Shown here in pieces: positions 10,415-40,504 of a stretch of 64,000 bases of DNA (position 1 is the first letter of the stretch; the number at the start of each line of letters is the position of its first letter). The notes below the pieces were generated by a model. It saw nothing but the letters and a program-made list of their open reading frames with translations. It searched no databases and was not told the origin of the DNA. Where the stretch lies: assembly GCA_028825265.1 (NCBI GenBank), contig JAPKAM010000004.1:333-64332 (forward strand). The letters run 5' to 3'. The translations under genes and the position numbers were made by a program. Source of the DNA: Planctomycetota bacterium (GTDB taxonomy: Bacteria > Planctomycetota > UBA8108 > UBA1146).

Positions 10415-10684
10415 ATGAGCATCACAGCAGAACGCAAGACCGCATTGATTGTTGAGTACCGTACTTCGGAAAACGACAAGGGATCTGTTCAGGTCCAGGT
10501 CGCGATCCTGACGGAGAGAATCCGGAATATTACGGATCATCTTCGTTCTCGGAAGAAAGATTACGCAAGTCAGCGTGGCCTGCTCATTCTGGTGGGAAAG
10601 CGTAAGCGTCTCCTCCAGTACCTGATGCGCAAGAATCGGCCCGAATACCGGCTCTTGATCGAATCCCTCGGATTGCGTCGTTAG
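10415..10684 (+). CDS. rpsO: 30S ribosomal protein S15
   Basis: [15 protein letters not shown]...[16 protein letters not shown], 89 aa. The ORF-track start at 10334 is an upstream extension. Confidence 0.9.
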
Positions 10685-10886
10685 TTCGACCGTTGCCGTG
10701 TAGTGGCTTTCGAGATCGAGTCGAGGATAGTCCTGCGGAGTGTCGTGTGGCCGCTGGCCACTGACCCGTACAGAGACTTCAATCCTCCCTTCCAGTAAGA
10801 ATATAAATCAGAAGTAATTAAAGTTAGTAAGAATAGTGGATGAGGGCGCAAGGGCGCCCAGGCAGCAAGGGCTGCCAGGAGGATGG

Positions 10887-13139: not shown

Positions 13140-13157
13140 TCAGCAACGTATTTCAAA

Positions 13158-13192
13158 GGGGGACGGTCCAGGTAGGATCGTCCCCCTTTTTT
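13158..13192 (+). terminator. Rho-independent terminator after pnp
   Basis: GGGGGACG ...13 nt... CGTCCCCC followed by TTTTTT. Confidence 0.6.
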
Positions 13193-13208
13193 CATGCTGG
13201 AGGTGTGA

Positions 13209-23217: not shown

Positions 23218-24836
23218 TGGCTTACAAGGGACAGGTCACTGTTCTCGAGTTGAAGTCCCACCGCTGGCGTGCAGTCCATGTGCGTGGAATCGGGCATACC
23301 GTTGAGGTGGTCTCGGTTAACGAGGTGGAATCCCCCGCAGATGAAGACATCGGGGCATGGGTCAAGGAACTGACGACCAGAAAATTTCCGACCGGAAACA
23401 TTGTACTTCTGCTCGATGGAGAGAGTTCATCACTTCGCTACCATAGCGTGCCTCCGGTACCTTCCTGGCGGCTCGACCTGATCCTTCATTACGAGATCGA
23501 GGAGATCGCAGAAAAGACTGGTGATGCCCTCTCCGGGGGGCACATCGAACTGCTGGTTCCGGAGAGCCTATCCGAGGACACCTTGTTGCTGCTTGGGGTC
23601 GGGAAAGACTCGGTGATCCAGCCCCTCATCGACCAAATCCGGGAGGGCCATGGACAAGTGAAGTTGGCCTTGCCTTCTGCGATCGGAACTTTCCACGGAC
23701 ATCTCGCCAGTCACGGACCTGAGAGCGAAGATCAGACGGTCTTGCTGTGCGATGTGCAGGAGACTGAAACACAGGTGCTCGTGGTTCGGGAAAACCGATT
23801 ACTTTTTGCTCGAAGTGTCGGATTTGGTCTTCAAGGAATGGTCGATCTGGTCACCGAACGAACATCGGTTTCTGAAGCGAAAGCACGTCAGATGATCGCC
23901 GCATTCGTTTCGGGAGATCTGATCGATGGAGAAGAAGCGATGGTCGGCTGTCACCGCGGCTGGACCAGTCAGTTGGGGCAAATGCTCACGTCTTCTCTCT
24001 CCTTCTGTAAAGCTCAGCTGAAGATTGACGATGTCATCGCAGATCGAGTACTACTTTCGGGTATCGGAGCAGAGCTCGTAAGTCGATGCGATCAGCTCCG
24101 TCGATTGATGGATAAAGATCTAGAGGTGGTCTCCTTCGCGGGAACCGCTGGATCGCAGTGGACTCTGAATATAGGGACTGCAGCAGCAGCCCTCGATTCC
24201 GACGATCGAATTGTCGATCTGCTGCCCACTGCCGAGCGCAAGCGCAGAACGTTTCGAGACCACACACGCTTTTTGTGGGCCGGTGTTGCTGCGTTGGTTT
24301 TGGCCGTCGGATTGCAGGCGATGGATGTGTCTGTTTCTGCCGCACGCGCTACCGGTGCATCCCAAACGATTCGTCAGTGGCGCGGCGATATTTCCAACTG
24401 GCGGTCGGCAGAAGAAGATGCTCGAAAAAGTAACGATGTGTTCCGGAAAAGGGAGACCAGGATCATCCAGGAGATCGAGACGGGGAAGTTTTACTCGAAG
24501 ATCCTCGACCGACTTCGGCAGGATCTTCCCTCCGAAATCTCACTGGAGCAGATCAGCCTTCGCAGGGTTGTCGGCGATTCAGAGATCGGTATCGAGATCG
24601 AACTGATCGGCCAGGCGGACAATTCTCGACGTAATGGCCTCGAAGCCATCGAGACGTTGCAGGGTAACCTCGAGGGTATTCCTGGTGTTGAACGGGTTCG
24701 TTCCACACCTGAAGACCAGAAATCAGGCGCCTATCCATTCAGTATCTTGGTTTCTCCGGATGAAAAGTTGCCGGAGAAGAGTAACCGGGGTCCTGGCAAC
24801 CGTCGTAGGAAGTCACCGTTCGGGGGGAGAGGATGA
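23217..24836 (+). CDS. GspL-like / PilM-PilN fusion-like inner-membrane assembly protein
   Basis: Cytoplasmic actin-like segment (LLCDVQETETQVLVV...FARSVGFG...RVLLSGIGAEL), single TM helix (FLWAGVAALVLAVGLQAM) and a periplasmic coiled-coil domain. TGATG overlap with the upstream gene. Confidence 0.4.
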   Translation: MAYKGQVTVLELKSHRWRAVHVRGIGHTVEVVSVNEVESPADEDIGAWVKELTTRKFPTGNIVLLLDGESSSLRYHSVPPVPSWRLDLILHYEIEEIAEKTGDALSGGHIELLVPESLSEDTLLLLGVGKDSVIQPLIDQIREGHGQVKLALPSAIGTFHGHLASHGPESEDQTVLLCDVQETETQVLVVRENRLLFARSVGFGLQGMVDLVTERTSVSEAKARQMIAAFVSGDLIDGEEAMVGCHRGWTSQLGQMLTSSLSFCKAQLKIDDVIADRVLLSGIGAELVSRCDQLRRLMDKDLEVVSFAGTAGSQWTLNIGTAAAALDSDDRIVDLLPTAERKRRTFRDHTRFLWAGVAALVLAVGLQAMDVSVSAARATGASQTIRQWRGDISNWRSAEEDARKSNDVFRKRETRIIQEIETGKFYSKILDRLRQDLPSEISLEQISLRRVVGDSEIGIEIELIGQADNSRRNGLEAIETLQGNLEGIPGVERVRSTPEDQKSGAYPFSILVSPDEKLPEKSNRGPGNRRRKSPFGGRG

Positions 24837-25639
24837 TCCAGGAAATCTGGCAAAAAAACCGCAAGGTTTTGATTCAGGTGCTTTCAGCACTGGCGATTTT
24901 TCTGGTCGCTACTAATGTCACTAGCAGTTATCGAGCCGACCATGAAAAAAACCTGATTCGACATGAAGAGGACGCCCAACTGGTCGCACAGGATCTCGAG
25001 GGGCTCGAAGGTGTGGTCGATGTGGAGAGAAAATCTCGGACCGCCCTTGAGGATCGGAATCTGGATCTCCTTAAGAAACTGGGGATCTCTTTTTCAGCAA
25101 TTCATCAACCATCGGTGGATGAGGCATCTGTCAGTACTGATTTCAAGAGAGCCAAGGACCTGGTCTGGAACAACTTCAGGGACCAGGCCAATCGAGCTGG
25201 AATGGTGACTCCCGCCGAGATTCCGAATTTTGATGAGCGTTCTGATCTGTCATTGCTGGAATGGGCCGATCGGTATCGACTGCTGGAAGTTCTCGATCGA
25301 TTCACCAGGGTCTGCCTTCAAACCGGGGTTGCGCGCCTTGATGATGTGATCCCTGCGAAACGGCTGCAGGAGGCATTAGAAGATCCTAACAAGGTGCTCG
25401 CTCGTTATCCGCTCCACGTCAAGATGCTCTGCAAGCCCGAGCAATTGGTGGAGATGCTGCTTCGTTTTCAGCGCGACGGCGGATTCCTGTCACTAGAGCC
25501 GACAAGGGTGACCCAGGAAAAGTCCGGCGGTGAGAAAATCGAAGTGGATTTACTAGTTGTTGGAATTGACATGGAAGACCCTCGAGTCGACAGCGGCTCG
25601 ACTCGTCGGGGATCCGACCGTTCGAGGAGGGGATTCTGA
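24833..25639 (+). CDS. Bitopic membrane protein, GspM/PilO-like by architecture
   Basis: N-terminal TM helix (VLIQVLSALAIFLVATNV) plus a periplasmic domain. ATGA-coupled within the operon. Confidence 0.35.
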   Translation: MIQEIWQKNRKVLIQVLSALAIFLVATNVTSSYRADHEKNLIRHEEDAQLVAQDLEGLEGVVDVERKSRTALEDRNLDLLKKLGISFSAIHQPSVDEASVSTDFKRAKDLVWNNFRDQANRAGMVTPAEIPNFDERSDLSLLEWADRYRLLEVLDRFTRVCLQTGVARLDDVIPAKRLQEALEDPNKVLARYPLHVKMLCKPEQLVEMLLRFQRDGGFLSLEPTRVTQEKSGGEKIEVDLLVVGIDMEDPRVDSGSTRRGSDRSRRGF

Positions 25640-26025
25640 TGCGCTGGAACATCGAAAAGGGATTCTGTGTTATCTGCCTCGGGTTTTTACTCCTGAGTGT
25701 TCTGGGGCTAGCTAAAACCTACATCCTGGAAGATCCACTGGCGGGGGTCGATCTCAGGGTCCCTGAATCCAGTGATGGGGGAACTGTCGGAGGGCTGGTG
25801 AGGCTGGAGTGGTATGAACCGGCTCCCATAGAAATGGCCAGAAATCCATTCTCCAGTGTCAGCGAATGGAAAACTGCTCCAACAGATTTGTTGGGCGTGC
25901 CGCCCCTCAGTCCCGTACTACGCAGGGTACCGCTGCCGGCACTGGTGTCTGGCGACCCCAGGACCCGCCTTCGTGCCGAACTGGCGACTCCCGTAGCGGT
26001 CGAAGATGAGAAGGAGTCTCAATGA
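25639..26025 (+). CDS. Small bitopic membrane protein (GspC/PilP-like position)
   Basis: TM helix (FCVICLGFLLLSVLGLA) and a Pro-rich periplasmic tail. Translationally coupled at both ends. Confidence 0.3.
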   Translation: MRWNIEKGFCVICLGFLLLSVLGLAKTYILEDPLAGVDLRVPESSDGGTVGGLVRLEWYEPAPIEMARNPFSSVSEWKTAPTDLLGVPPLSPVLRRVPLPALVSGDPRTRLRAELATPVAVEDEKESQ

Positions 26026-28352
26026 CGAAGTGGTTCAGTTGCCTGCTCTTCATCGCCTTTCTACTGTTCCCACGGGCAGTTCTTGAAGGTCAAACGGCCA
26101 TCGATCTAGAGATCCGTGCCTACGATGTCATCGAATTGAATAATGGAAATCAGTTCGAGGGCAGGATCATCGCAGAGTTATCGAATTTGATTCAATTTGA
26201 AACTGCGGCGGGAAAAGTCACCTTCCCTCTTTCAGATGTCCGTAACATCTTCTACAGAAATCCTCCCGAAAAGGTCTACCAGACTCGGCTGCAGGATGGA
26301 TTTGATGAGTCTTCAGCTGCCGAGCAATTTGAAATCGGCAGATGGTGCCTGGATCCAGCAGTCGGACTGCTGGAGCAAGCCGTGAATCACCTGGAGATGG
26401 CCGTCCAACTCGATCCGACATCGGCGGCTCCTTACCAGCTGTTGATCCCCATCTACCAGCAAGACGATGCTCGCCAATTCCAGTCCACTGATCATGAAAT
26501 GACTGCCGATGTGGCGATGACGCAGACACTTCTGAAGGGTGTTCGTGCCAACATCGAGATCGAAGGTCTCTTCGAACTCACGGTCACCCAACTGATCCAG
26601 ATCGGCGAATCAGAAGCGGCCGTGTTGCTGTTGATGCGCCAGAGTGAAGGTGACGTCACGATTCCTTCCGTCGCGGCGGCGCTGAAAAAATTGGTGGTAC
26701 TTCTCGATGCACTGGGTCGTAGTGAAGAGTCGAGACAGGCCGCCAGTCGACTTCGCAAAGGCGGTGGTGGAAGCGATGTCGAGGTCTTGCAGCGAGAAAT
26801 TCGATGGGCGGTCCTCGACTATGCCGCTGGATCGCTGGATTCACGCGATGCGATCGAACAGTTGTTCGATGATCTGATCGCCGCGGGTGGTGCGGATGGG
26901 CAGAGTTATCTCTATCGTGGTACGGCTCGGTTACTCGACGATCAACTAGTACTGGCGCAAGACGACTTCAAGAAGGCTTTTCGGGCCGGAAGTGTCGATG
27001 CCATTGCTGCCACCACTTTTGCCCTCTCCTTCGCCAGGATGGGCGATTTCGACAAAGCACTAGGACTACTGGGGCCCGCTTCCGAGGGGGACCAGGTCAA
27101 CGTGGATTGGCGACTCGTGGAAGCCTACGTACTGGAATCTCAGGGAGAATCCAGGGCTGCGGTAGATCTCTATCAGGAGGCGACCGAGCAGGCTGAGGCC
27201 ACCTGGCAATCACGCCTGTTAAGCATCGAAGCGAGGCGGAGGCTAGATCCGAACTGGGATCCGACTTCGGATGTTGAAAAGGTCATGCGACACGACGTGC
27301 TGTCCTCCGCTGCTTTTGCCGAATGCGCACTGGTGCTGGGAGACCATGCTCTTTCACGAGGAAAACAGGCGGAAGCCAGACGTTGGTTGGAATACGCCGT
27401 TGCCAGTGGGCTCGACGGTTCTGATGTGATGCTTCGCCTCGGTCTCGCACAACGCGGACCGGGTGGTGATCCGAAGAGAGCGCGAGATGCACTGACTCTG
27501 GTGACGATAGATCAGCCAAAGAACCCCGACGGTTGGAATGCTCTGGCGGAGTTCCTCCATTCCAATGGTGAACTCGAAGACGCTCGTTTAGCCCTGCGGA
27601 AGTCGCTGGACCTGTTCCCTGAAAAGATGCGAGATAACTGGGCGCCCGATGCGCCGGCTCCTTTGCGCTGGGCACTGCGCGCTCAGCGACGAATCAATCG
27701 GACCCTTTCAGAAGAGTACTGGTACGATGATTTTGATCGAGCAAATGACTCTTCACTACAGAATAACTGGCGTGAAGAAGAAGCCTTTGGTGTCTCCGTT
27801 TCTCTCAAGGATGGCATGGCGATCATCGAAGGAGTCCAGAAACATCAACCGGACCGCTTGACCTCGATGAAACGTGAAATCCTGACTTCTCGTCTGACAG
27901 GATTTCGGTCGACACTTCGGTTATTGGCTGCTGGCACTGGCACGCGGATTGCATTTCGTGTGGAAGACCAATCGGGTGGTGGGCTGATCTTCTTCCGAGA
28001 TCCCGATGGTGTCCTTGGTTTCGCCCTTCTCGGGGGGAAAGAGATCAAGATGGTTCGCAGCGACGATGCCGAACAGGGGGAGGACTTTGGTTTGATTGAA
28101 ACCATCTGGTCGCCGGACGATCGTGCTCACCAGTTGGAAATCATTTTCACGCGGGAAGGCAAGGAGGGCGCCGAGTTGTGGTTTGACGGCATCCTTGTGG
28201 CGCGGGAAATTCCATATCGACCGGCCAGGAAGGCTGGCTTGACGGCTGGTTTTTCCGGTCAGGCTCCTCTCGATGAAAAATATCATCTGGCCATCGAGGA
28301 GTTCGAGGTGTTTCGCCGAAAGGCGGTCTCAATCAGGGAGCAGGAGTACTAG
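26022..28352 (+). CDS. Secreted TPR-repeat protein with C-terminal beta-rich domain
   Basis: Signal peptide (WFSCLLFIAFLLFPRAVLEG), multiple TPR-like helical repeats and a ~200-aa non-TPR C-terminal domain. Coupled within the operon. Confidence 0.5.
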   Translation: MTKWFSCLLFIAFLLFPRAVLEGQTAIDLEIRAYDVIELNNGNQFEGRIIAELSNLIQFETAAGKVTFPLSDVRNIFYRNPPEKVYQTRLQDGFDESSAAEQFEIGRWCLDPAVGLLEQAVNHLEMAVQLDPTSAAPYQLLIPIYQQDDARQFQSTDHEMTADVAMTQTLLKGVRANIEIEGLFELTVTQLIQIGESEAAVLLLMRQSEGDVTIPSVAAALKKLVVLLDALGRSEESRQAASRLRKGGGGSDVEVLQREIRWAVLDYAAGSLDSRDAIEQLFDDLIAAGGADGQSYLYRGTARLLDDQLVLAQDDFKKAFRAGSVDAIAATTFALSFARMGDFDKALGLLGPASEGDQVNVDWRLVEAYVLESQGESRAAVDLYQEATEQAEATWQSRLLSIEARRRLDPNWDPTSDVEKVMRHDVLSSAAFAECALVLGDHALSRGKQAEARRWLEYAVASGLDGSDVMLRLGLAQRGPGGDPKRARDALTLVTIDQPKNPDGWNALAEFLHSNGELEDARLALRKSLDLFPEKMRDNWAPDAPAPLRWALRAQRRINRTLSEEYWYDDFDRANDSSLQNNWREEEAFGVSVSLKDGMAIIEGVQKHQPDRLTSMKREILTSRLTGFRSTLRLLAAGTGTRIAFRVEDQSGGGLIFFRDPDGVLGFALLGGKEIKMVRSDDAEQGEDFGLIETIWSPDDRAHQLEIIFTREGKEGAELWFDGILVAREIPYRPARKAGLTAGFSGQAPLDEKYHLAIEEFEVFRRKAVSIREQEY

Positions 28353-28994
28353 ATGAACCCTTCACCACGAGCCGGATTCACCCTGGTCGAACTACTGGTG
28401 GTGATTGCCATCATCGGCGTTTTGGCTGGACTGGGTTCGAAGATGCTGAGCTTTGCCACCAAGAGCAGTGCCATCGGCCTGGCCGAACAGGAGATGCAAC
28501 GATTGGTGCTGGGCGTGGAAACCTATCAACTCGATTTCGGCGATTTCCCACCCAGTTCGATGGAGCAAGAGTACGAGATCTCCGGCAATGGTCTAGACGA
28601 GGGAAACGAGAGTTTGGTGGCCCATCTCGCCAGTCGCTCGAGAGGCCGGAGTTACTTCGAGTTCAAGGAGGAGTTTCTCGAGAATCTCGATGATGATCGT
28701 ATCGGTGATGCAGATCTCTATCAGCAGATGCGCTGGGTTTTCGGCGATGAACAACTGAGAGAATACGTAGATCCCTGGGGAGTTCCTTACGTCTACATTC
28801 ACAATAGAGATTACGGCATCGATTACTCTGTGACTCAAGAATCAGGCCCGATCAAGATCCACGCAGGGAATTCTCGTAAAACTGCGACCTATCATGAACC
28901 ACTTCGTTTCCAGATATGGTCAGCGGGGCCGGATGGTATTCACCAGATCGATGTCGATGATCCGGATGCCTCGGATGACGTGGCGCCATGGTGA
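28353..28994 (+). CDS. gspG: Major pseudopilin, GspG-like (type II secretion / type IV pilin-like)
   Basis: Class III signal RAG|FTLVELLVVIAIIGVLAGL with Glu+5, GspG 'DPWGVPYVY' motif, and C-terminal SAGPDG (cf. GspG GADG). 213 aa against a canonical ~145. Confidence 0.7.
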   Translation: MNPSPRAGFTLVELLVVIAIIGVLAGLGSKMLSFATKSSAIGLAEQEMQRLVLGVETYQLDFGDFPPSSMEQEYEISGNGLDEGNESLVAHLASRSRGRSYFEFKEEFLENLDDDRIGDADLYQQMRWVFGDEQLREYVDPWGVPYVYIHNRDYGIDYSVTQESGPIKIHAGNSRKTATYHEPLRFQIWSAGPDGIHQIDVDDPDASDDVAPW

Positions 28995-30376
28995 GAAGAA
29001 GTTTCGATTCGAATCACGGCGTGACCTTGATCGAGCTCCTGGTGGTGCTTTCGATCCTGTCGGTCATGCTCGGAATGTCGATGTCCGTTTTTCGGTCCTT
29101 CGGCGAGGCCCAGACGCTGGAGATCGCTTCCAGCAGCATCTCTACGACGGTCAGAGCTGCGCGGAACTGGTCGATCTCATCCGGGATGCAGAGCCGGATT
29201 CTGGTCGATCCAGAGCATCGTAAAGTGACCGCCTTCGGATTTCAATTGGCGGGTGCCTGGGGTTTCGAGGATTTTTACGGCCTTCCTGAAAAGCAGTTAT
29301 TGCCGCCGGGATCGGTGACCCTCGGTGCCTATCGCCAGCCAGCAGAACTGGTCGGCCAGGTGGAACCCTGTGCCGGATCGATCGGTCGAGGGGCGATGTT
29401 CGTCAACGATGGTGCCGCATTTCGTGCTCGTCGCCTGGCCAGTTACGAGGGTCGTAATGGGGTTTCCATCGAAGCGTGGGTTCATTTCTGGAAGCCGCCC
29501 TGGCGTCCAGAAGATGGAATTGAGCCGGATGGGGGCTTTTCCGATCCGCGGCGGGAGATGCGCATGGCCGTGCTTGGCATTCCCGATTCATTCGAGATGG
29601 GAATCCTCGGCGATGGCGCCGTTTACATGCAGATCGGTGATCCGCAGAGGGCCATCGATGGGCAATACATCCGCGCCCAGACGGAGGGATCTGCGGTCCT
29701 TGCGGATCGATGGGTACACCTGAGAGCCACTTTTGATTGTACCGAACTGATTCTCGAGGTGGACGGCGTCGAGCAGGCTTGGATTCCTGAGGGCTTCGAA
29801 ATGATCGAACAGTGGCCGCCATTACCCACTGCAATCCCTCACAGCGATTCCGATCTGTGGATTAGTCATCCCAATCGATTTTTCATGGGAGCCATCGATC
29901 AGGTGGTCCTGAGGGTGGCAACGACACCAGAGATCGTCGAATTGCCCATCGATATCGAACTGTTGGGTCCCACGACGCTGATTTATCTCGACAGCCGAGG
30001 GGCTCTCGATCCGTTGCTGCACAATTTCCCTGTGGTGATTCACGTGGCGGAGGTCGGAGATTTTTCTGAAATTGAAGCCGCAGATGGAACTGCAGTTGCA
30101 AAAGAAGGATTCAGGGATCGCATCGAACGAGAGCGACAGGAACAGGCGGCTAGAGACGGTGAGATCGTCCAGGCATTTGGCGATCCCATCTCGGATCTGA
30201 TGAAGCATCTGGAAGGCTGGGAAACCGATCCAGATGCTCTCATCGAAGAGGAAGAAGAGAAGAACCCGGTGCCATTGACTCCAGGAATGCACTACGGAAT
30301 TGGCGATGTGGATGGAACATCAGTGCTTCGTCTTCATAACATCGTGATTGATATGACGGGAGCTATTCGTGGTTAA
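28988..30376 (+). CDS. Large pseudopilin-like protein (GspH-like position)
   Basis: Prepilin N-terminus NHG|VTLIELLVVLSIL with Glu+5. 462 aa. Confidence 0.5.
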   Translation: MVRRSFDSNHGVTLIELLVVLSILSVMLGMSMSVFRSFGEAQTLEIASSSISTTVRAARNWSISSGMQSRILVDPEHRKVTAFGFQLAGAWGFEDFYGLPEKQLLPPGSVTLGAYRQPAELVGQVEPCAGSIGRGAMFVNDGAAFRARRLASYEGRNGVSIEAWVHFWKPPWRPEDGIEPDGGFSDPRREMRMAVLGIPDSFEMGILGDGAVYMQIGDPQRAIDGQYIRAQTEGSAVLADRWVHLRATFDCTELILEVDGVEQAWIPEGFEMIEQWPPLPTAIPHSDSDLWISHPNRFFMGAIDQVVLRVATTPEIVELPIDIELLGPTTLIYLDSRGALDPLLHNFPVVIHVAEVGDFSEIEAADGTAVAKEGFRDRIERERQEQAARDGEIVQAFGDPISDLMKHLEGWETDPDALIEEEEEKNPVPLTPGMHYGIGDVDGTSVLRLHNIVIDMTGAIRG

Positions 30377-33300
30377 GCCAGAGAGAAATCTTGAACGAGG
30401 AATGGCCTTGTTGATGGTCATCCTGGTGCTCTCCGCGCTGGCAGCGATCGGTACTCCGTTTGTGATTTCGATGAAACTTCAAGAAAGAGGTGCCGCTCGG
30501 GCAATCGCACAGCAGCACGCACAACTCGCTGCGCAAAGTGCCAGAGGACATGCTCTTAGCCGATTGTTCGATACTCATCATAGTCGAGAACGAGATCGCT
30601 GGCGCCCCGGAGTGGAGGCTCCTGACTTGGTCGATGGACTGGACGAATTGAAAGTCGACTTTCCTGGTGTGATCACAACTGTACCTGTGGTCGGTACACC
30701 TCCGGAGGATTTTCAAATTCGAGGTAATTCTCAGGTGATCCTCGATGCTCGCGTGACTGACGAGCAGGGCAAGATCAACATCAACTCTGCGATGCCTAAT
30801 CTCATGGGCAACTTGTTGGCCGGGAGTCATCTGTCCGAAGCGATCAGCTATGAAACGGATCTGGGAGAGTTGCCACTCGACGACACCTCTTCTTTTCCCG
30901 CGGATGATGATCCGGAGACGATTGATGGTGTCGTCGTGATCCTCAATCCGATCTTCTTCACTGTCGAGGCGATTTCATACACTGGAAAAACTGAAACAGC
31001 GTTGACCGGGATCTTCAGGGGACAATACCTGTCGGGGACATGGGAGCACCAGAAAGGTTGGCCAGTCTTCGACCTTCGTGGGTTGAAGGTCTTCTTGCAT
31101 CGGCTCGCCAATCTCTCTGACGGTGAAATCGCGACCTTCCGTACTCCGATTGGAATCCGTCAGATTGCCGATTGGTCGGTGGTTCCCTATTTCCTCAAGA
31201 CCCTGGCAGTGGTGGGGCTCAATTTCAAGAACATGGCGGAATGGGGTCTGACCACAGAGATGCTGGTGCGTGCGGGGATCGATCCATCCTTGCTCCAGGG
31301 GGATACAGAACAAGTGGATGAAGCGGAATATCGTAAAGCACGAAAGATGTTTCTCGATAATAACATCCCCAAGGATGTGGTCGATCTGGTCGAGTCGATT
31401 CGTGGAAAAGCTGCGGTGATCGAAGCGGCTGAGGTGGTCGCGGGCTTTGGTCTGACCAAGGCCAGGGGGAATGCATTCAAGGGTGTCTATCTGACCTTCA
31501 TCGCACCGGAGCTGAAGAAGATCAAGAAGAGGGGCAAGAGTTATTTCCCCAGCGCCATCCTCGCTTACCAGGAAATTTTTGATCTCCCCGGAATGGAAAC
31601 CTTTTCAGCTTTTGAGTTTGAGCAAATCCGCGACCTGATCACGACCACCTCGACCCAGCCGAGGGCATGGTCGCAGGAACAGATGGTCGAGGGAGAGATC
31701 ACCGATAGTGCGCTACTCGGAGTCCCGCAGATGCGTCTGCCACGGTATGACTTCTTCAATCCTGGAACTGTGGTGAGAATCCGCAGCATCGATGATCCCT
31801 CGAAGGTTGAATATGGACTCGCTGCGGGGGCTTTCCCGACTCCTCGGGGAGGATTCCGGGGATTGGGAGCTGGCTCCATCTTTCAGGGCGGTGTGATTCT
31901 CAAGGAACCCTTGAAATATCAGTGGGGCGAGCGCGAGGCGATGGTTAGTGCCGCACTTCGGCATCCGGTCAACATCAATACCGCCCCTCGTAGGGTCCTC
32001 GAAGCGGTCTTGACCGGGCTCTCCACCGATCGGTTCGAGGCACGATTCAACGGAGTGACCGTCGAAGAAGCGCGTGGATTGACCGACCTCCTGATGGAAG
32101 CGATGCCGATTTCTGGTTTCGCCGCTTTGCGGGAGGTGGTGGAAGCCGCTCAGATGAGTGGCGTCCTCGATGGCGGTGATTCCGAAGCGATTCTCATTAA
32201 CGCACTGAACCCAAATCAGCCACGACTCTCCATCTCCACCACGGGATTTTGTTACGCCACTTCTGAGATCTACACCGTTGAATCGACCGGAGTGGCCAGG
32301 AGCCCGGTGGGTACTCCTCAAGCGACGGTTCGCCTTCGTGAGGTGATCGAGGTTGCACCTCCGGATCCGCTTTCGCTAAGGCTGGAAACGCAGGAGGACT
32401 GGTCTTCCATCTTTCTCACACGTAATTCGAGCGGTGGGATGTTCTCTCGATTCAACACGACTTTCGTCCCCGGTCGGGCGTCGAACCTGGTGATCAGTGG
32501 TCCGATCCCTCTCAACCGTCGCAAGTTCACCGGGCCTTCTCTCGATGAAGGAACTCTTCGTGGAGCGACCATCTCGTATGATCGAGATTCAGGGAACTAC
32601 GGTTTCGGCTCGGTCGGCTTGCTGGATGTCGAGCACTTTAGCGAAACCATCGAGGGGTATGAACTGGAAGACGGTTCCTGGAAGCGATCGATTCTCCTCC
32701 AGCAAGAAACCGAACCGACTCGGGGCCGAGGACGCAGGGGGGCGGCGCCTGATCCCCAAGTTTTGGATCAAAATTCGACTGAAGACGCCCTTTCGACCAT
32801 CCCTGCGATGATTGATTTCTGGTACCGCCCGCGCTGGGGCTCGCGAAGTGGAAACCGAATTATCTTCGATACCGTGGGCCCGACCCTGGATCGATATCGT
32901 GATCGTGTGCGATTGTTCTTCTCCGGGGATACACAGGAACTGGTGCTGCAGGTCTTTGATGAGACCGGATCTGCAGTGGCGTGGGATACCAATGTTCTAC
33001 CTGCGGCAGAGGTTCGGCACTCGGTCACGACCATCAACTTTGCAGATGACACCTGGTATCACATCTCTGCGGGATGGAGATCGACGAGGCCTGGAGATCT
33101 GGTGCTGATGATCGATCGTCGGCCGGTCGGTCGTCAGTCCTGGTTGTCACGCCTCAATGGTGCGCTTTCATTCTCGGGCAATCGTGTTTCCATCGTCGAT
33201 GGTGACATGGCGACCCGGTTCCCCCCGATGGGCACCTTGCTGGTGGGTTCTGAAGCGATCGATTACTCGGGTCGGGAAGGGGCTGCCTTCATCGTCAGGT

Positions 33301-36092
33301 CACCAGGGCTCAACGGCTCTCCTCCGATCGGGCGCGGAGTTCGTGGGACGGTTCGGTCGAGCCATGCTGCGGGCACTCCTGTAAGGCTTCTGGGGTATTC
33401 ATTGCCCATCGCCAATTCTGATCCACGACGCGGACTGGCCGATTCCTCCAGTGACATCATCATCGGTCCTGGTGGGGCATCTCTGGAGATTGAGATCACT
33501 CCGACGATGAGGGTTGCGGCCTTCAACACCGGTACAGGTGCAGTGGAATTGACGCCTGCGACATTTTCACGTGCCTCGACCCAGATCCCCTTCTCTGCCG
33601 GAAGTCCCGTGACCAGTACCCTGGAATTGGAGCCGTTTGCGGCCACTTCGTCTTCCTTGCTGGTTCAGACCAACGGAAGCCATCCTCTGGAACTGGGTTT
33701 TCCGCCGCGAGGATATCTTCATATCCAACAGTGGACCCAGCAGGGGATCGAAAGGGCGCAATTGGTGGCGTCTGAATTCGCCAAGTACTCCTCCATCACT
33801 CCGGGACCGATCCCTGGCCTCTATCGCTTCACCGCCATGGGTAGAGCGCTGCTAAACTCGACGGCGACCCAGGGTGTCATCACGGCCACCTCCACAACCA
33901 CCCTGCAGGTCAGGGGTGTTTCTATCGAGTCGAATGCGACCGATTTGAATCTGAGTTATGCACCTTCCGGTGTGATTCAGATCGATTACATGCCTGGCTC
34001 GCAGAGTCTCGGGCTGCTCCAGGATGCCGAATGGATTCGATACACGCAGATCGCCGAGGGCAAGTTCTTCATCTGTGATCCGGATCAGGTCGAGGCCTTT
34101 CGTGGCTTCACCGGGGACCAGTACATCAACACCAGTGATCCATTCCGTCGTAATCGGCCACTGTGGGATATGAATGGCATCGTGCGCCATGCTGCCGGAC
34201 AGGAGATCACTCAGGTGGTCCGCGCGGTCGGGGCCTCTGCTGGATTTGGTGACGAAGTGATCCTCGGGGATGGCTATGGCGATCCGACTACCCGGCTGCG
34301 AGAAGAAACGCCGCTGAGAGTTCGCAAGGTCCGCGAAACCGACAGTGGCACCTATGTCAGCTTTTACTGGCCTCCTGAGGGAATCTATCGGCCGGGACAG
34401 GATCCACGAATCCGTCGTTTCCCCAGTGGTGGTTTACCTTCTTCATCCAACGGGGAGATTCGCTTCGGGTCATCGATGATCAGCGGCGATGGGATCGATG
34501 CACCGGGGACCCTGGACGAGGTTCGTTTTAGTCGCCTCGACTCGAGTGACGTCGACACCTATGCATTTCCCGCCGCTTCCAATGGTGGGTTCCGGACGAT
34601 GCCGATCCAGGCTTCGCCGGGATTGCCGTCGGGGGTTCGAACCGAGGTGCTGCGTAGCGGATACACGGAACAGGATTCTGAACAGCCGGGCGGAGTGCTC
34701 GACAAGATTCACTTGTTGGCTCGTTCAAAACTCACCGCTTCCGCTGTGACGCCACCGGAAGGTGCCACTGATTTCACTGCAGGATCGGTTCGATCCTTTT
34801 CAGTCGGCGATCCTCGAGGATTTGGGCTGGGAAAACGAGAAGGATTGTTTCAGGTCGATGATGAGGTGATGCATTACACCTTTGACCCCGGCTCGGTCGA
34901 GGCCTCGGTGGTGATCCAGTTGGAGCAGGATCTTCCGCGCGATCCTTACCTGGATGAAGATGCGCTCGGTGAAGGGGAGGTGGTTCCCTATGACCCCAAC
35001 CGAGACCTGAGAGTGGAAGTGGTCAACATTGTCCGGGTCAACAACACCGCCAACCTACCTCCCAACGGCGGATTCCTTGAGATGATCTCCGGACCCACCA
35101 ACGAAGTGCTCTACTACCAGCAAGCTTCGAACGGGGTGCTACGCAATGTGCTGCGCGGCCAGCTCGGATCATCGGTGGGTGGGTATGTTTATCAGTGGTC
35201 CTACACCGACGCCGCCGGTGCTGTTCAAGTTGTGACCAATACCCACCAATTGCGGTTGATCCCCAGTCGTACCATCGATGTGATGACCCGAGGAATGCTC
35301 ACCACGGAACGTGCTAGCAATGAGTTGGGACACGAACCTCTGGTTCCGCTCCCCAGTATCCCAGTGGCACGGCTCGCCGGGCAGGTCGCTGAATCGGGTT
35401 TGACGCTGGAGGTGATGGGACTTCCCGGAAACGAAGGTGAGAATCGCCAGCTGCTGGGATTCCCTTCCGGCGAGGGATATCTGCTGGTGGATGACGGAAT
35501 CGTCTCGACACCCGACGAGATCATCGCTCACACCGGAGCGCAGGGCGGTAGCTTTGGACTGTTCCGTGACGATCGCACTGGCAAGGGAATTTTCCGCGGT
35601 CGCTTCGGCACCGATTTTAAGGTCCATGCCGCGGGTACCCCTGTCATCGAACTTCTGGCTCGACATCACGATCGTTATCAGCCGCTGGTGGAATCGAAGG
35701 ATCTCCAGTATCTCGAGCGGGCCTGGACGATGCCAGGAACGATGTGGGACCGCATCAGTTGGGCTGTGGAACAGTCTCGAAACCGTTCCACCGCCGGAAC
35801 CGTACGAATACTCGCCCGTTTTGATGGCATCCCTGGTTGGGATTCCACTCCGACCAATGCACCGGGTGGGCTCTATCTGTTCGACGATCCAGATGACGCG
35901 AATCGACTGGGGAGATTTGGTGATGCGATTGAAATTCGGATTCACTATCGTCACCGAAAAGGAGCCTTTGGCCTGACGCGTCAGTCGGGGATCTGGAATG
36001 ACGAATGGAAACATCTTCCCATCTTGAAAAGCGTAGCGATCGAGCACCGCAAGGAGTGGCGTATCTTGCATCACGAGGAATACCCGTATTGA
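30369..36092 (+). CDS. Giant GspK-like minor pseudopilin (1907 aa)
   Basis: GTG start. GspK-type N-terminus RG|MALLMVILVLSALAAIG lacking Glu+5, as in GspK. GspK family motif HPVNINTAPRRVLEAVLTGLS, followed by >1500 aa of extra sequence. Confidence 0.5.
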   Translation: MVKPERNLERGMALLMVILVLSALAAIGTPFVISMKLQERGAARAIAQQHAQLAAQSARGHALSRLFDTHHSRERDRWRPGVEAPDLVDGLDELKVDFPGVITTVPVVGTPPEDFQIRGNSQVILDARVTDEQGKININSAMPNLMGNLLAGSHLSEAISYETDLGELPLDDTSSFPADDDPETIDGVVVILNPIFFTVEAISYTGKTETALTGIFRGQYLSGTWEHQKGWPVFDLRGLKVFLHRLANLSDGEIATFRTPIGIRQIADWSVVPYFLKTLAVVGLNFKNMAEWGLTTEMLVRAGIDPSLLQGDTEQVDEAEYRKARKMFLDNNIPKDVVDLVESIRGKAAVIEAAEVVAGFGLTKARGNAFKGVYLTFIAPELKKIKKRGKSYFPSAILAYQEIFDLPGMETFSAFEFEQIRDLITTTSTQPRAWSQEQMVEGEITDSALLGVPQMRLPRYDFFNPGTVVRIRSIDDPSKVEYGLAAGAFPTPRGGFRGLGAGSIFQGGVILKEPLKYQWGEREAMVSAALRHPVNINTAPRRVLEAVLTGLSTDRFEARFNGVTVEEARGLTDLLMEAMPISGFAALREVVEAAQMSGVLDGGDSEAILINALNPNQPRLSISTTGFCYATSEIYTVESTGVARSPVGTPQATVRLREVIEVAPPDPLSLRLETQEDWSSIFLTRNSSGGMFSRFNTTFVPGRASNLVISGPIPLNRRKFTGPSLDEGTLRGATISYDRDSGNYGFGSVGLLDVEHFSETIEGYELEDGSWKRSILLQQETEPTRGRGRRGAAPDPQVLDQNSTEDALSTIPAMIDFWYRPRWGSRSGNRIIFDTVGPTLDRYRDRVRLFFSGDTQELVLQVFDETGSAVAWDTNVLPAAEVRHSVTTINFADDTWYHISAGWRSTRPGDLVLMIDRRPVGRQSWLSRLNGALSFSGNRVSIVDGDMATRFPPMGTLLVGSEAIDYSGREGAAFIVRSPGLNGSPPIGRGVRGTVRSSHAAGTPVRLLGYSLPIANSDPRRGLADSSSDIIIGPGGASLEIEITPTMRVAAFNTGTGAVELTPATFSRASTQIPFSAGSPVTSTLELEPFAATSSSLLVQTNGSHPLELGFPPRGYLHIQQWTQQGIERAQLVASEFAKYSSITPGPIPGLYRFTAMGRALLNSTATQGVITATSTTTLQVRGVSIESNATDLNLSYAPSGVIQIDYMPGSQSLGLLQDAEWIRYTQIAEGKFFICDPDQVEAFRGFTGDQYINTSDPFRRNRPLWDMNGIVRHAAGQEITQVVRAVGASAGFGDEVILGDGYGDPTTRLREETPLRVRKVRETDSGTYVSFYWPPEGIYRPGQDPRIRRFPSGGLPSSSNGEIRFGSSMISGDGIDAPGTLDEVRFSRLDSSDVDTYAFPAASNGGFRTMPIQASPGLPSGVRTEVLRSGYTEQDSEQPGGVLDKIHLLARSKLTASAVTPPEGATDFTAGSVRSFSVGDPRGFGLGKREGLFQVDDEVMHYTFDPGSVEASVVIQLEQDLPRDPYLDEDALGEGEVVPYDPNRDLRVEVVNIVRVNNTANLPPNGGFLEMISGPTNEVLYYQQASNGVLRNVLRGQLGSSVGGYVYQWSYTDAAGAVQVVTNTHQLRLIPSRTIDVMTRGMLTTERASNELGHEPLVPLPSIPVARLAGQVAESGLTLEVMGLPGNEGENRQLLGFPSGEGYLLVDDGIVSTPDEIIAHTGAQGGSFGLFRDDRTGKGIFRGRFGTDFKVHAAGTPVIELLARHHDRYQPLVESKDLQYLERAWTMPGTMWDRISWAVEQSRNRSTAGTVRILARFDGIPGWDSTPTNAPGGLYLFDDPDDANRLGRFGDAIEIRIHYRHRKGAFGLTRQSGIWNDEWKHLPILKSVAIEHRKEWRILHHEEYPY

Positions 36093-37174
36093 TGAACAAA
36101 GAACAAGGAATGACTCTGATCGAGATTCTCGTATCGCTGGGTATCTTCGTGATGCTCGGGAGTGGCCTGGTTGTGTTTCTGAAAGATGGAATTTCCACCT
36201 GGCAAGTCGGCGAATCGAGACGTGAAGCGATCGAACGATCGGAGGCGATTCTGCAGCCGCTTTGTGCCGATCTGAGATCTCTCTTCTCGCAACCCGATCC
36301 TGGACCTGGTGGTGGACTCGTCGATGTACTGCTGCTGTGTGATCGTGACGCTCTGGGTCGATCCCGATTGCGCATGGTCAGTGTGCTTGACGAGGAGGTT
36401 CGCAATCCGATCACCCGGATTGCTGGATCGCTGACGGGCGGTCTTGCCGACATCGATTACCGAAATGATGCGATGGAAGCTCGGCTGGGAATTCTTCGTG
36501 CCCCTGGCGGCCTGTGCGAGGTGAGCTATTCGATGGGACCCGCGGCAGGTTCCGAAGTGTTGTGGAAGGGGTTCAAGAGCCCCATCGGGGGCGAAGGCAC
36601 CCTTTTCAATCAGGCCAACTTGGCGCCCGATGTCGATGGCACTCCGATGCGGAGTCGCCCCATCGCCGATGGTGTGCTCTACATCGAATGGTCCTTCTGG
36701 GGTGGAGATCGTCGTCGCTGGGTCGATGGCAAAATCCAGCCCCCGATCACCCGCTGGGATTCGACTCGCGGTATCTTGCCGATGGATCGAAAAACTGGAA
36801 TTCGCTGGGATCCTGACAGTCGAGATGATCCCTCCGATGATGTGTTCCCCGACACCGTCGAGGTGCTGCTGGTTCTGAGACCTGCCCGGTCGATGGCTCT
36901 AGCAAGACTGATTTCGGATATCGACGATAGAACCGCTGAGATTCGGGTTGATTCCACCGCGCAGTATCCAGTGGGTCCTGATCATTACATCCGCATCGAC
37001 TCCGAATGGATTCGCGTGGGGCGCATCACACGAGGTGCTTTTCTCGATTGCGAAAGAGGAATGCGAGGTTCGGTAGCGCAGCAACACGCACGTCTGCGGC
37101 CGGTGGTCCACGGCTCTGAATTCCGGAAAACGGTTCGGATTCCAGGATCCCGGGATCCGGGGGGGCAGCGATGA
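36092..37174 (+). CDS. Pseudopilin-like protein (GspJ-like position)
   Basis: QG|MTLIEILVSLGIFVMLGS with Glu+5. TGATG overlap with the giant gene; the ORF track starts it earlier, at 36005. Confidence 0.55.
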   Translation: MNKEQGMTLIEILVSLGIFVMLGSGLVVFLKDGISTWQVGESRREAIERSEAILQPLCADLRSLFSQPDPGPGGGLVDVLLLCDRDALGRSRLRMVSVLDEEVRNPITRIAGSLTGGLADIDYRNDAMEARLGILRAPGGLCEVSYSMGPAAGSEVLWKGFKSPIGGEGTLFNQANLAPDVDGTPMRSRPIADGVLYIEWSFWGGDRRRWVDGKIQPPITRWDSTRGILPMDRKTGIRWDPDSRDDPSDDVFPDTVEVLLVLRPARSMALARLISDIDDRTAEIRVDSTAQYPVGPDHYIRIDSEWIRVGRITRGAFLDCERGMRGSVAQQHARLRPVVHGSEFRKTVRIPGSRDPGGQR

Positions 37175-37596
37175 AAGTGCAGCACAAAGAATCAGGATTC
37201 ACCTTGCTCGAGGTGGTCGTGGCTCTCGGAATCCTGACGGTCGGAGTCAGTGCTGCCATCTCCCTGTTCGCCGCAGGTACCGCTTCGCATCGGCGTGCGG
37301 TCGATCGGATCCGGGCCATCGAGGTCTCGGAAGTGGTCCTCTCCGCCCTCGAAGGGACGATTCGCGACGGAGCAACGGTGACCGATTTGATCCAGAATCC
37401 ACCGTGGCAACCATTGATCTCTCGGTGGCCTGGAATCTCAGTGGAGGTGCGTTATGGCACCGTTCCCAAGGTAGACTTCACCGATGAGCTGCTGGTCGAG
37501 ATTCATGTGCAGTGGATCTCTCGCGGGCTCGATAGTGAGGAAGTGTTTCGACAGATCGTTCCGAGGATGAGAAGTATCCGATTGGATGCGCCCTGA
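37171..37596 (+). CDS. Small pseudopilin (GspI-like)
   Basis: SG|FTLLEVVVALGILTVGVSAAISLF with Glu+5. 141 aa. ATGA overlap. Confidence 0.6.
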   Translation: MKVQHKESGFTLLEVVVALGILTVGVSAAISLFAAGTASHRRAVDRIRAIEVSEVVLSALEGTIRDGATVTDLIQNPPWQPLISRWPGISVEVRYGTVPKVDFTDELLVEIHVQWISRGLDSEEVFRQIVPRMRSIRLDAP

Positions 37597-38995: not shown

Positions 38996-39095
38996 GGCCC
39001 GTTTGTGCGGGTCTGATTCCAACCTGGATGGCTCCGGTGTACGCACAGTGCGTGACTCCGGCATCCAGCACTCCGAGCAGAGAGGTGAGGTCCCG

Positions 39096-40463: not shown

Positions 40464-40504
40464 AACTTACAACCTGCCCATCCCCGTTCGAGAGAGGAAA
40501 CTTC

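What the first reader, a model, noticed from the sequence alone, without database searches (positions are those of the whole stretch)
30369..36092. A 1907-aa GspK-like minor pseudopilin, about six times canonical size
The N-terminus (RG|MALLMVILVLSALAAIG) has a prepilin-like hydrophobic helix without Glu+5, which is the GspK hallmark. The GspK family motif NINTAPRRVLEAVLTGLS is present. The protein then continues for more than 1500 residues. In T2SS, GspK caps the pseudopilus tip. A giant tip subunit would be analogous to fusing a minor pilin with a PilY1/PilC-like tip adhesin. It could be an adhesin, enzyme-bearing or substrate-selecting tip of a novel fibre. The GTG start overlaps the preceding gene by 8 nt.
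Basis: partly seen in the sequence, partly recalled or inferred. Interest (0 to 1): 0.85.

Follow-up and report, generated by a model that had tools for sequence, protein, structure and literature searches.

The report
Giant GspK-like tip pseudopilin, Planctomycetota
This 1907-residue protein is a real, conserved, giant version of the small cap subunit (GspK) of bacterial type II secretion or type IV pilus-like filaments, fused to a lectin-like, all-beta head of about 1,230 residues, and it defines an uncharacterised family found almost only in Planctomycetota.

Summary
ORF 30369..36092 (+) is an uninterrupted 1907-aa gene. It is conserved full length in relatives down to 35-40% identity, so it is not a frameshift or an assembly join.

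The N-terminal ~676 residues are a GspK-type module:
- NCBIfam T2SS_GspK: E = 2.4e-10.
- Profile-profile match to a GspK alignment: 97.6% probability.

The module holds about 330 residues of insertions and scores below every curated GspK cut-off. Residues 808-1907 fold confidently (pLDDT 85, pTM 0.83) into a LamG/ConA-like lectin domain, six small phage-tail-like beta-barrels and a C-terminal beta-sandwich. No enzyme fold and no PilY1 propeller is present.

The gene lies in a conserved G-H-K-J-I pseudopilin cassette. The other four subunits have Glu+5 and K does not. No ATPase, platform, secretin or peptidase lies within 10 kb in 84 related loci.

Best reading: an apical filament subunit carrying a ligand-binding head. 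This is a new variant of the known modular minor pilins. All public annotations seen say 'hypothetical' or 'LamG domain-containing'.

The parts
30369..36092 (+). Whole gene for the 1907-aa giant K-type pseudopilin (GTG start; stop ends at 36092)
   Evidence: 100% identical to NCBI 'MAG: hypothetical protein OSB09_00930 [Planctomycetota bacterium]'.
30369..30572 (+). Leader (aa 1-11, ending in Gly11) and hydrophobic alpha-1 helix (aa 12-68). Position +5 is Met, not Glu.
   Evidence: Sequence. Model helix 8-68. NCBIfam GspK and hhalign alignments start here. Among family representatives with a recognisable N-terminus, 0 of 70 have Glu at +5.
30669..30785 (+). First pilin beta-strands, ending in the GspK-type motif DEQGKININ (aa 101-139)
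   Evidence: Model strands 101-104, 113-116 and 123-131. D131 is invariant; E132, Q133, G134, K135, N137 and N139 are nearly invariant. Aligned to the GspK D-x-Q-x-x-F-N-L-N motif.
30816..31076 (+). Insertion 1 in the K module: small beta-barrel (aa 150-236), homologous to the repeats in the C-terminal head
   Evidence: hhalign self-comparison: 150-236 matches 1664-1762, 927-1005 and 1081-1171. Model strands 167-235.
31077..31637 (+). Insertion 2: helical domain (aa 237-423). Residues ~250-400 are absent from the shorter cousins.
   Evidence: Model helices 236-423. Occupancy in P0033-P0039 is 0.00-0.29 for residues 251-400.
31689..31955 (+). Insertion 3: second beta-barrel (aa 441-529), with the fold of EF-Tu domain II or a phage-tail barrel
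31959..32207 (+). GspK alpha-domain core with the helix-hairpin-helix motif HPVNINTAPRRVLEAVLTGL (aa 531-613)
32268..32396 (+). Closing beta-strands of the pilin fold (aa 634-661), then the conserved segment PLSLRLETQ (aa 668-676). By position, this segment is equivalent to the terminal strand of GspK.
   Evidence: Model strands 634-644 and 650-661; residues 662-720 have low confidence. The hhalign match ends at residue 666, which equals GspK 314 of 327. Q675 is invariant.
32397..32789 (+). Linker (aa 677-807), partly conserved (P712 invariant), low model confidence
   Evidence: pLDDT below 50 for residues 678-720 in model 1, and for 708-727 and 780-803 in model 2.
32790..33203 (+). LamG / concanavalin-A-like lectin-fold domain (aa ~808-945)
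33204..35654 (+). Array of small beta-barrel repeats (units at about aa 927-1008, 1081-1171, 1185-1282, 1481-1548, 1549-1663 and 1664-1762) with intervening beta structure
35655..36089 (+). C-terminal beta-sandwich (aa ~1763-1907) with a conserved extreme C-terminus (...EWRILHHEEYPY). One of the best-conserved parts of the family, and always at the protein's end.
   Evidence: Model strands 1782-1895. Conservation. In 450 representative clusters this domain maps to the C-terminal end.
28353..28994 (+). G-like (major?) pseudopilin, 213 aa, G|FTLVE with Glu+5
   Evidence: N_methyl and weak T2SSG. TIGR01710 gspG, E = 8e-11. tblastn with E. coli GspG.
28988..30376 (+). H-like pseudopilin carrying a LamG domain, 462 aa, G|VTLIE
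   Evidence: N_methyl and Laminin_G_3. TIGR01708 gspH, E = 1e-6.
36092..37174 (+). J-position pseudopilin, 360 aa, G|MTLIE. Its start overlaps the stop codon of K by 1 nt. Its C-terminus carries one copy of the small-barrel motif.
   Evidence: N_methyl. The orthologue in L001 starts at the K stop. blastp E = 0.003 to K residues 1219-1252.
37171..37596 (+). I-like pseudopilin, 141 aa, G|FTLLE
   Evidence: N_methyl. TIGR01707 gspI, E = 1.8e-5, and pilV, E = 1.3e-5.
23217..28352 (+). Conserved upstream genes: a PilM/GspL-like protein (539 aa), 268-aa and 128-aa membrane proteins, and a 776-aa TPR protein
   Evidence: Weak PilM_2, TIGR01175 and Amuc_1101-family hits. TPR. Synteny in 25-49 of 84 loci.
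18515..23217 (+). FHA-GAF-sigma54 activator and a two-FHA-domain protein at the head of the cluster
   Evidence: Pfam. Conserved in 31-35 loci.

Best explanation
The protein is the K-type (apical, Glu5-less) subunit of a five-member pseudopilin set (G, H, K, J, I). The set belongs to a Planctomycetota-specific type IV filament, a system like a type II secretion system or a type IV pilus.

Proposed mechanism; all steps are inferred unless marked as shown:
1. The N-terminal hydrophobic helix anchors the protein in the inner membrane. A prepilin peptidase encoded elsewhere probably cleaves after Gly11.
2. The GspK-fold module (aa 1 to about 676; the fold is shown) nucleates a tip complex with the adjacent I-like and J-like subunits. 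The H-like and G-like subunits then polymerise beneath it.
3. Lacking Glu5 (shown), K can only be the first, most distal subunit.
4. The head of about 1,100 residues (aa 808-1907) would therefore sit at the distal end of the filament. It holds a LamG/ConA-like domain, six small phage-tail-like beta-barrels and a conserved C-terminal beta-sandwich; the folds are predicted with high confidence.
5. The head most likely acts as a ligand-binding device, probably for a glycan or a surface, and not as an enzyme. In effect it is a cap pilin and a PilY1/MshQ-type tip adhesin in one polypeptide.
For: **GspK homology**
- NCBIfam T2SS_GspK: E = 2.4e-10. The same model hits the compact N-modules of five distant cousins at E = 1e-6 to 1e-11, on profile positions 1-106 and 209-254.
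- hhalign against a GspK alignment: 97.6% probability, plus a co-linear second match.

**Role as the apex subunit**
- No Glu+5 in this protein, nor in 70 of 70 family N-termini that could be read.
- The four neighbouring pseudopilins all have G|xTLxE.

**Context**
- The genes for H, K, J and I overlap by 1-8 nt, and G starts 1 nt after the TPR gene, which suggests translational coupling.
- The G-H-K-J-I order is conserved in most of 84 loci across several Planctomycetota classes.

**Head**
- Model pLDDT 85.3, pTM 0.83.
- Internal repeats.

**Precedent**
- Modular pilins and GspK viewed as a modular pilin (PMC8179133).
- K-family subunits as licensing apex subunits, with CpaL, PilY1 and MshQ as tip partners (PMC12918778).
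Against: - All curated cut-offs are missed: NF037980 scores 40.5 bits against 130, and PF03934 scores 18.9 against 24.2. PF21687 (T2SSK_1st) is not detected.
- Foldseek against the PDB found no GspK.
- No GspD, E, F or O homologue lies in the window or within 10 kb of the gene in any of 84 related loci. So no motor, platform, secretin or peptidase is tied to the cassette.
- Some relatives, including both Ca. Uabimicrobium genomes, are solitary genes with no adjacent pilins.
- Whether a head of about 130 kDa can pass a secretin or reach the surface is unknown.
- No ligand, localisation or expression data exist.
- The I and J assignments rest on gene position and weak N-terminal HMM hits only.
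Confidence: 0.68

Rival explanations
1. It is the K subunit of a true type II secretion pseudopilus that never leaves the periplasm. The bulky head would work as the piston face, a substrate-docking platform or a plug under the secretin, selecting or pushing exoproteins. It would not be a surface adhesin.
For: - The five-member set G, H, I, J, K, with only K lacking Glu5, is the T2SS signature.
- The G-like subunit scores best on the gspG model.
- The 539-aa PilM-like protein with a transmembrane segment resembles GspL in layout.
- By position, the K module carries its own terminal strand, as GspK does in T2SS (PMC12918778).
Against: - The gene order (G-H-K-J-I) and the lack of linked gspC, D, E, F and O are not T2SS-like.
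- All subunits are enlarged, and H and K carry lectin-type domains. That fits ligand capture better than a piston.
- A tip complex of roughly 250 kDa is hard to fit in a periplasmic vestibule. This last point is inference.
Confidence: 0.17
2. It is not a filament subunit at all. The GspK-like module has been reused as a membrane anchor or periplasmic stalk for a large cell-envelope or cell-surface beta-protein that works independently of any type IV filament machine.
For: - Solitary copies without neighbouring pilins exist in Ca. Uabimicrobium and several MAGs.
- No assembly ATPase or secretin is linked in any locus.
- Planctomycetota are known for many giant cell-surface proteins (PMC12673574).
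Against: - In most loci the gene is embedded in, and appears translationally coupled with, four Glu5-bearing pseudopilin genes and PilM-like genes.
- The GspK-specific motifs and the fold are strongly conserved: D131, N535, N537 and Q675 are invariant. That argues for a retained K function.
Confidence: 0.12
3. The long ORF is an artefact: a frameshift, a chimeric assembly, or a fusion of a small gspK with a separate downstream gene.
For: None found. Only the unusual size prompted the idea.
Against: - The same architecture appears, with the same length (1790-2050 aa), in dozens of independent assemblies from NCBI, ENA, JGI and Logan at 35-90% identity.
- It also appears in 101 species-representative genomes.
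- Conservation is continuous along the whole length.
- Both halves give confident single-chain models.
Confidence: 0.01

Closest known systems
GspK / XcpX, the minor pseudopilin K of type II secretion systems (PDB 3CI0 chain K, 5VTM chain X; NCBIfam NF037980; Pfam PF21687 + PF03934)
   Same: - Prepilin-like N-terminus without Glu5.
- The D-x-Q-G-x-(I/F)-N-(I/L)-N strand motif and the (I/V)-N-(I/V)-N-T-A helix-hairpin-helix motif.
- Encoded next to G-, H-, I- and J-type pseudopilin genes.
   Different: - 1907 aa against about 330 aa.
- About 330 extra residues (two beta-barrels and a helical domain) inserted in the alpha-domain.
- The first SAM-like domain (PF21687) is not detectable.
- A linker and head of about 1,230 aa follow the module.
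- Below all curated cut-offs.
- Gene order G-H-K-J-I, with no linked gspC, D, E, F, L, M or O of the canonical kind.
CpaL/TadG of Tad (type IVc) pili, as described in PMC12918778
   Same: A large K-analogous tip subunit: an N-terminal minor-pilin-like domain followed by a large non-pilin region. It is needed at the filament apex.
   Different: - CpaL is about 600 aa, and its extreme C-terminus folds back to complete the pilin sheet.
- Here the module is of GspK type and, by position, has its own terminal strand at aa 668-676. Whether the conserved extreme C-terminus also returns was not testable.
- No Tad-family domain was detected.
Modular minor pilins: S. sanguinis PilB (vWA) and PilC (ConA-like lectin), ETEC CofB, T. 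thermophilus ComZ (PMC8179133)
   Same: The same design principle: a pilin carrier module with a grafted effector module for display at the tip. PilC also uses a concanavalin-A-like lectin module.
   Different: - Those are ordinary Glu5-type or T4b pilins of about 450-860 aa, with one or a few extra domains.
- This is a K-type carrier with about 1,600 extra residues, both inserted and appended.
- It is more than twice the most extreme case (860 residues, 12 extra domain copies) named in that InterPro survey.
PilY1/PilC and MshQ tip-associated adhesins of type IVa and MSHA pili
   Same: Functional analogy: a large protein (above 1,000 aa) at the filament tip, associated with the I-J-K minor pilin complex. 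From my own knowledge, not tested here, MshQ also contains LamG-type domains.
   Different: - PilY1 and MshQ are separate, non-pilin proteins that donate a C-terminal strand to the K subunit in trans (PMC12918778).
- Here the large part is covalently fused to K.
- No PilY1 beta-propeller.

Membership tests
GspK (T2SS minor pseudopilin K) | Prepilin-type N-terminus (Gly at -1, hydrophobic alpha-1) that lacks Glu at +5 | tested here: met
   ERG|MALLMVILVL, with Met at +5. Among family representatives with a recognisable N-terminus, 0 of 70 have Glu at +5.
GspK (T2SS minor pseudopilin K) | Scores above the curated cut-off of the family HMMs (NF037980 at 130 bits; PF03934 at 24.2 bits; PF21687) | tested here: not met
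   NF037980 gives 40.5 bits (E = 2.4e-10, partial, profile positions 1-106 of 307). PF03934 gives 18.9 bits. PF21687 gives no hit.
GspK (T2SS minor pseudopilin K) | Remote homology to the family by profile-profile comparison | tested here: met
   hhalign against an alignment of 33 GspK sequences: 97.6% probability and E = 2.6e-12 for residues 6-213 to GspK 2-177. A second, co-linear match for 523-666 to GspK 203-314 has 60.7% probability.
GspK (T2SS minor pseudopilin K) | Pilin fold with an alpha-domain (helix-hairpin-helix, SAM-like) inserted in the beta-sheet | tested here: met
GspK (T2SS minor pseudopilin K) | Forms the GspI-GspJ-GspK tip trimer; encoded with gspI and gspJ | tested here: inconclusive
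   Adjacent Glu5-bearing pseudopilin genes of 360 and 141 aa are present, and the arrangement is conserved. Their I/J identity rests on weak N-terminal hits. No complex model could be run.
GspK (T2SS minor pseudopilin K) | Part of a gsp operon with secretin GspD, ATPase GspE, platform GspF and peptidase GspO | tested here: not met
   tblastn with E. coli GspD, E, F and O found nothing in the window and nothing in 84 related loci with 10-kb flanks. The rest of these genomes could not be searched.
GspK (T2SS minor pseudopilin K) | Calcium site in the alpha-domain (D-W-I-D-x-D ... G-A-E-D-x-x-Y region) | tested here: inconclusive
   hhalign places the conserved ADDDPETIDG...TVEAISY (aa 177-204; D186, G187, E200 and Y204 are nearly invariant) opposite this region. 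The same stretch is also one of the small-barrel repeats.
PilY1/PilC tip adhesins | C-terminal PilY1/PilC beta-propeller domain | tested here: not met
TadG/CpaL (Tad pilus tip subunit) | TadE/TadG-type N-terminal domain, usually with a vWA middle domain | tested here: not met
   No Tad or vWA family found in the Pfam or NCBIfam scans.
Verru_Chthon cassette protein A (TIGR02600), the large protein of PVC pseudopilin cassettes | Match to TIGR02600 | tested here: not met
   No NCBIfam hit at E of 0.1 or below for the giant protein. The neighbours give only weak sub-threshold hits to cassette proteins B and D.
Modular type IV pilins (sensu PMC8179133) | N-terminal pilin module plus at least one non-pilin functional module in the same polypeptide | tested here: met
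   K-type pilin module plus a LamG-fold domain and a beta-barrel array. The IPR012902/N_methyl signature itself is not detected in K, as is usual for GspK.

The most novel reading that the evidence does not exclude
The giant K protein and its conserved G-H-K-J-I cassette, with PilM-like and TPR genes, define a distinct, Planctomycetota-wide class of type IV filament. Its tip is a built-in, lectin-bearing capture device of about 130 kDa. These filaments could be the molecular basis of the still unidentified planctomycetal pili-like fibres, such as those at crateriform structures that bind dextran (PMC5394234). That would make macromolecule 'fishing' and uptake genetically testable. The presence of the family in the prey-engulfing Ca. 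Uabimicrobium would fit a capture role.
Probability: 0.15. Interest if true: 0.85.

Novelty: new variant of a known kind. Interest (0 to 1): 0.62.

Why it matters
- K-type minor pilins are the apex and 'licensing' subunits of type IV filaments. How filaments gain new functions at their tips is an active question, studied through modular pilins, PilY1, MshQ and CpaL.
- This family shows the extreme of that trend: the cap subunit itself has grown about six-fold, by insertions in its alpha-domain and by fusion to a lectin-plus-beta-barrel head.
- The family is large. It has 450 clusters at 50% identity and occurs in at least 101 species-level genomes. It spans several Planctomycetota classes, and every public annotation seen calls it only 'hypothetical' or 'LamG domain-containing'.
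- It gives a concrete candidate gene set for planctomycetal fibres, whose molecular identity is unknown.
- It is also a natural test of how large a cargo a type IV filament tip can carry through the envelope.

Tried and rejected
- Sequence searches of the PDB with the single protein and with a 31-sequence profile found nothing useful.
- hhalign against a single E. coli GspK sequence aligned only the N-terminal helix, at 74% probability. A 33-sequence GspK alignment was needed.
- The PHROGs scan of K, J and H found no phage family for K or J. The phage-tail resemblance of the small barrels is structural only.
- A profile search of the 5.8-billion-protein collection added only two partial family members and no informative names.
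- A cluster look-up of 10 representatives gave only Planctomycetota MAG 'hypothetical' or 'LamG' names and no cultured model organism.
- An apparent relative of about 2,700 aa (L065) resolves into two ORFs in different frames, so it is not claimed as a larger member.
- The exact sigma-54 consensus upstream of the G gene is only partly conserved and lies inside a coding region, so it is not used as evidence.
- The PilY1, TadG, MshQ and Verru_Chthon-A identities were considered and rejected for lack of their defining domains.
Full report
**1. The observation**

The ORF 30369..36092 (+) starts with GTG, has no internal stop and encodes 1907 aa.
- The N-terminus reads MVKPERNLERG|MALLMVILVLSALAAIG, so position +5 after the putative cleavage Gly is Met.
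- NINTAPRRVLEAVLTGLS lies at residues 535-552.
- The GTG overlaps the stop of the upstream gene (28988..30376) by 8 nt.

Further details seen here:
- A GGGAG Shine-Dalgarno sits 6-7 nt before the GTG. The alternative ATG (Met12) has its purine-rich run immediately adjacent and would remove the charged leader.
- A second GspK-type motif, DEQGKININ, lies at residues 131-139.

The protein is 100% identical to an NCBI MAG entry, 'hypothetical protein OSB09_00930 [Planctomycetota bacterium]', on a 64.7-kb contig.

**2. Not an artefact**

- The 5.8-billion-protein collection holds 39 homologues. Many are full length (1790-2050 aa) at 35-90% identity. They come from independent NCBI, ENA, JGI and Logan assemblies.
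- A scan of one genome per GTDB species found relatives in 101 genomes. Nearly all are Planctomycetota MAGs (UBA1146-like, TMED53, Brocadiia, Phycisphaeraceae). Two are Ca. Uabimicrobium chromosomes.
- An exhaustive phmmer search with the C-terminal 1200 residues found 450 clusters at 50% identity (308 at E of 1e-10 or below). Almost all members that are not obvious fragments are 1,250-2,190 aa long, and the C-terminal domain always maps to the protein's end.
- Conservation runs along the whole length.

**3. The N-terminal module is GspK-like**

Pfam alone is weak: T2SSK gives E = 0.0019, below its gathering score, on residues 534-555 only. Four further lines of evidence are stronger:
- NCBIfam T2SS_GspK matches residues 9-141 to profile positions 1-106 at E = 2.4e-10.
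- The same model hits the compact N-modules of five distant cousins, on positions 1-106 and 209-254.
- I built a 33-sequence GspK alignment and compared profiles. The result was 97.6% probability and E = 2.6e-12 for residues 6-213 against GspK 2-177. A co-linear second hit covered 523-666 against GspK 203-314 of 327.

Foldseek had missed the GspK matches.

The module is interrupted by three insertions:
- a small beta-barrel (aa 150-236);
- a helical domain (aa 237-423, largely absent from the short cousins);
- a second barrel (aa 441-529).

Across the family the module ranges from 361 to 754 aa. The shortest forms are therefore near the canonical GspK size.

**4. The rest of the protein**

Residues 708-1907 gave a confident, compact, almost all-beta model (pLDDT 85.3, pTM 0.83).
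- Nothing aligns more than 223 residues, and no catalytic or propeller fold appears.
- A profile self-comparison shows six copies of one small-barrel unit in the head, plus the copy inserted in the K module.
- Pfam finds Laminin_G_3 and a weak Rcc01698_C match in cousins. PHROGs finds nothing for K.
- The C-terminal ~145 residues are among the best-conserved parts of the family.

**5. Genomic context**

The gene is the third of five pseudopilin genes:

| Gene | Length | N-terminus |
|---|---|---|
| G-like | 213 aa | G\|FTLVE |
| H-like with a LamG domain | 462 aa | G\|VTLIE |
| K | 1907 aa | G\|MALLM (no Glu+5) |
| J-position | 360 aa | G\|MTLIE |
| I-like | 141 aa | G\|FTLLE |

H, K, J and I overlap by 1-8 nt, and G starts 1 nt after the TPR gene. 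One Glu5-less subunit among four Glu5-bearing ones is the pattern of the GspG-K set.

Upstream lie a PilM/GspL-like 539-aa protein, two small membrane proteins, a 776-aa TPR protein, a two-FHA-domain protein and an FHA-GAF-sigma54 activator.

tblastn with all of these against 84 related loci shows the following:
- G-H-K-J-I is conserved in most loci (G in 67, H in 68, J in 53, I in 42).
- The upstream genes are conserved in 25-49 loci.
- E. coli GspD, E, F and O find nothing in any locus, and nothing in the window.
- Both Ca. Uabimicrobium copies and a few MAG copies are solitary.

**6. Mechanism**

What is shown:
- homology to GspK and a GspK fold;
- absence of Glu5;
- the pseudopilin cassette and its conservation;
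- a lectin-type domain and a beta-barrel head, predicted with high confidence.

What is inferred from established knowledge of GspK/PilK subunits (apical position, I-J-K tip complex; PMC12918778, PMC8179133):
- The protein caps a filament polymerised from the G-like subunit, and so displays its head at the distal end.
- The head binds a ligand, most plausibly a glycan. This rests only on fold analogy with LamG and CBM domains and on the absence of enzyme folds.

Open point: the K-family 'licensing' terminal beta-strand may be supplied by aa 668-676 (PLSLRLETQ). This segment is positionally equivalent to the last strand of GspK, and Q675 is invariant. Alternatively it may be supplied, CpaL-like, by the conserved extreme C-terminus (...EWRILHHEEYPY), whose last 7 residues are disordered in the isolated model.

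**7. Comparison and novelty**

- The protein works like a GspK/PilK cap fused to a PilY1/MshQ-type tip protein. Conceptually it belongs with the modular minor pilins (PilB and PilC of S. sanguinis, CofB, ComZ, CpaL).
- It is a GspK homologue but fails the curated GspK thresholds, lacks PF21687 and is not in a gsp operon. I therefore do not file it as a GspK equivalog.
- It is not a PilY1, TadG, MshQ or Verru_Chthon-A family member, because their defining domains are absent.
- The most extreme modular pilin named in the 2021 InterPro survey has 860 residues (PMC8179133).
- No paper found here describes a giant GspK.
- Every public annotation seen is 'hypothetical' or 'LamG domain-containing'.

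Verdict: a new variant of a known kind, of moderate to high interest.

**8. Speculative extension**

Planctomycetes carry pili-like fibres of unknown composition that bind dextran (PMC5394234). A lectin-tipped filament cassette that is widespread in the phylum is a candidate for them. Nothing here links the two, and no carrier was found among the classical model strains.

Noticed in passing
window 27938-27953 (+): An exact sigma-54 -24/-12 consensus (TGGCACGCGGATTGCA). It lies inside the TPR gene, 415 nt upstream of the G-like pseudopilin gene, in a cluster headed by an FHA-GAF-sigma54 activator. At the same offset, seven close relatives keep GG-N10-GC with 2 mismatches, and the more distant relatives checked do not. 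Because the site is in coding sequence, its conservation is ambiguous.
   Followed up: partly
window 36092-37174 (+): The J-position pseudopilin is enlarged (360 aa). Its C-terminus (…IRIDSEWIRVGRITRGAFLDCERGMRGSVAQQHA…) carries one copy of the small beta-barrel motif that is repeated in the giant K protein (blastp E = 0.003 to K residues 1219-1252). The true start is 36092, a 1-nt overlap with the K stop, not the longer ORF starting at 36005.
   Followed up: partly
window 28988-30376 (+): The H-like pseudopilin is itself a modular pilin: 462 aa, with N_methyl and Laminin_G_3. Two subunits of the same cassette therefore carry LamG-type domains.
   Followed up: partly
window 23217-24836 (+): The 539-aa PilM-like protein gives a weak hit to the 'Amuc_1101 family PilM-like pilus complex protein' model of Akkermansia. 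Neighbouring pilins give weak hits to 'Verru_Chthon cassette' proteins B and D. This hints at a PVC-wide relationship among these cassettes.
   Followed up: no
window 39003-40463 and 40445-41776 (+): Two adjacent proteins end in similar dockerin/EF-hand-like D-x-D-x-D-G repeats (…DLNLDGQVDLADPIRLLNYLF…). Pfam gives NHL/Vgb-lyase-like beta-propeller hits only for the second. The pair is conserved downstream of the cassette in relative L001.
   Followed up: no
window 20542-23217 (+): The 891-aa ORF with two FHA domains overlaps the sigma-54 activator gene by 118 nt. The orthologue in L001 is 832 aa and starts just after the activator's stop codon. The real start is therefore probably near 20656 (MSGRIRVKDLG…).
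   Followed up: no
L064 and L083 (Ca. Uabimicrobium sp. HlEnr_7 and Ca. U. amorphum chromosomes), match at about 10001-13975: The phagocytosis-like, prey-engulfing planctomycetes encode a solitary member of this family of about 1,325 aa. It has a K-like N-terminus (KG|AALILAVVAL) and no adjacent pseudopilin genes.
   Followed up: partly
L065 9293-18148: The K-like tblastn match spans 8.1 kb but splits into two long ORFs (1501 and 1335 aa) in different frames. This could be a frameshift, a pseudogene or two tandem genes in that MAG.
   Followed up: no
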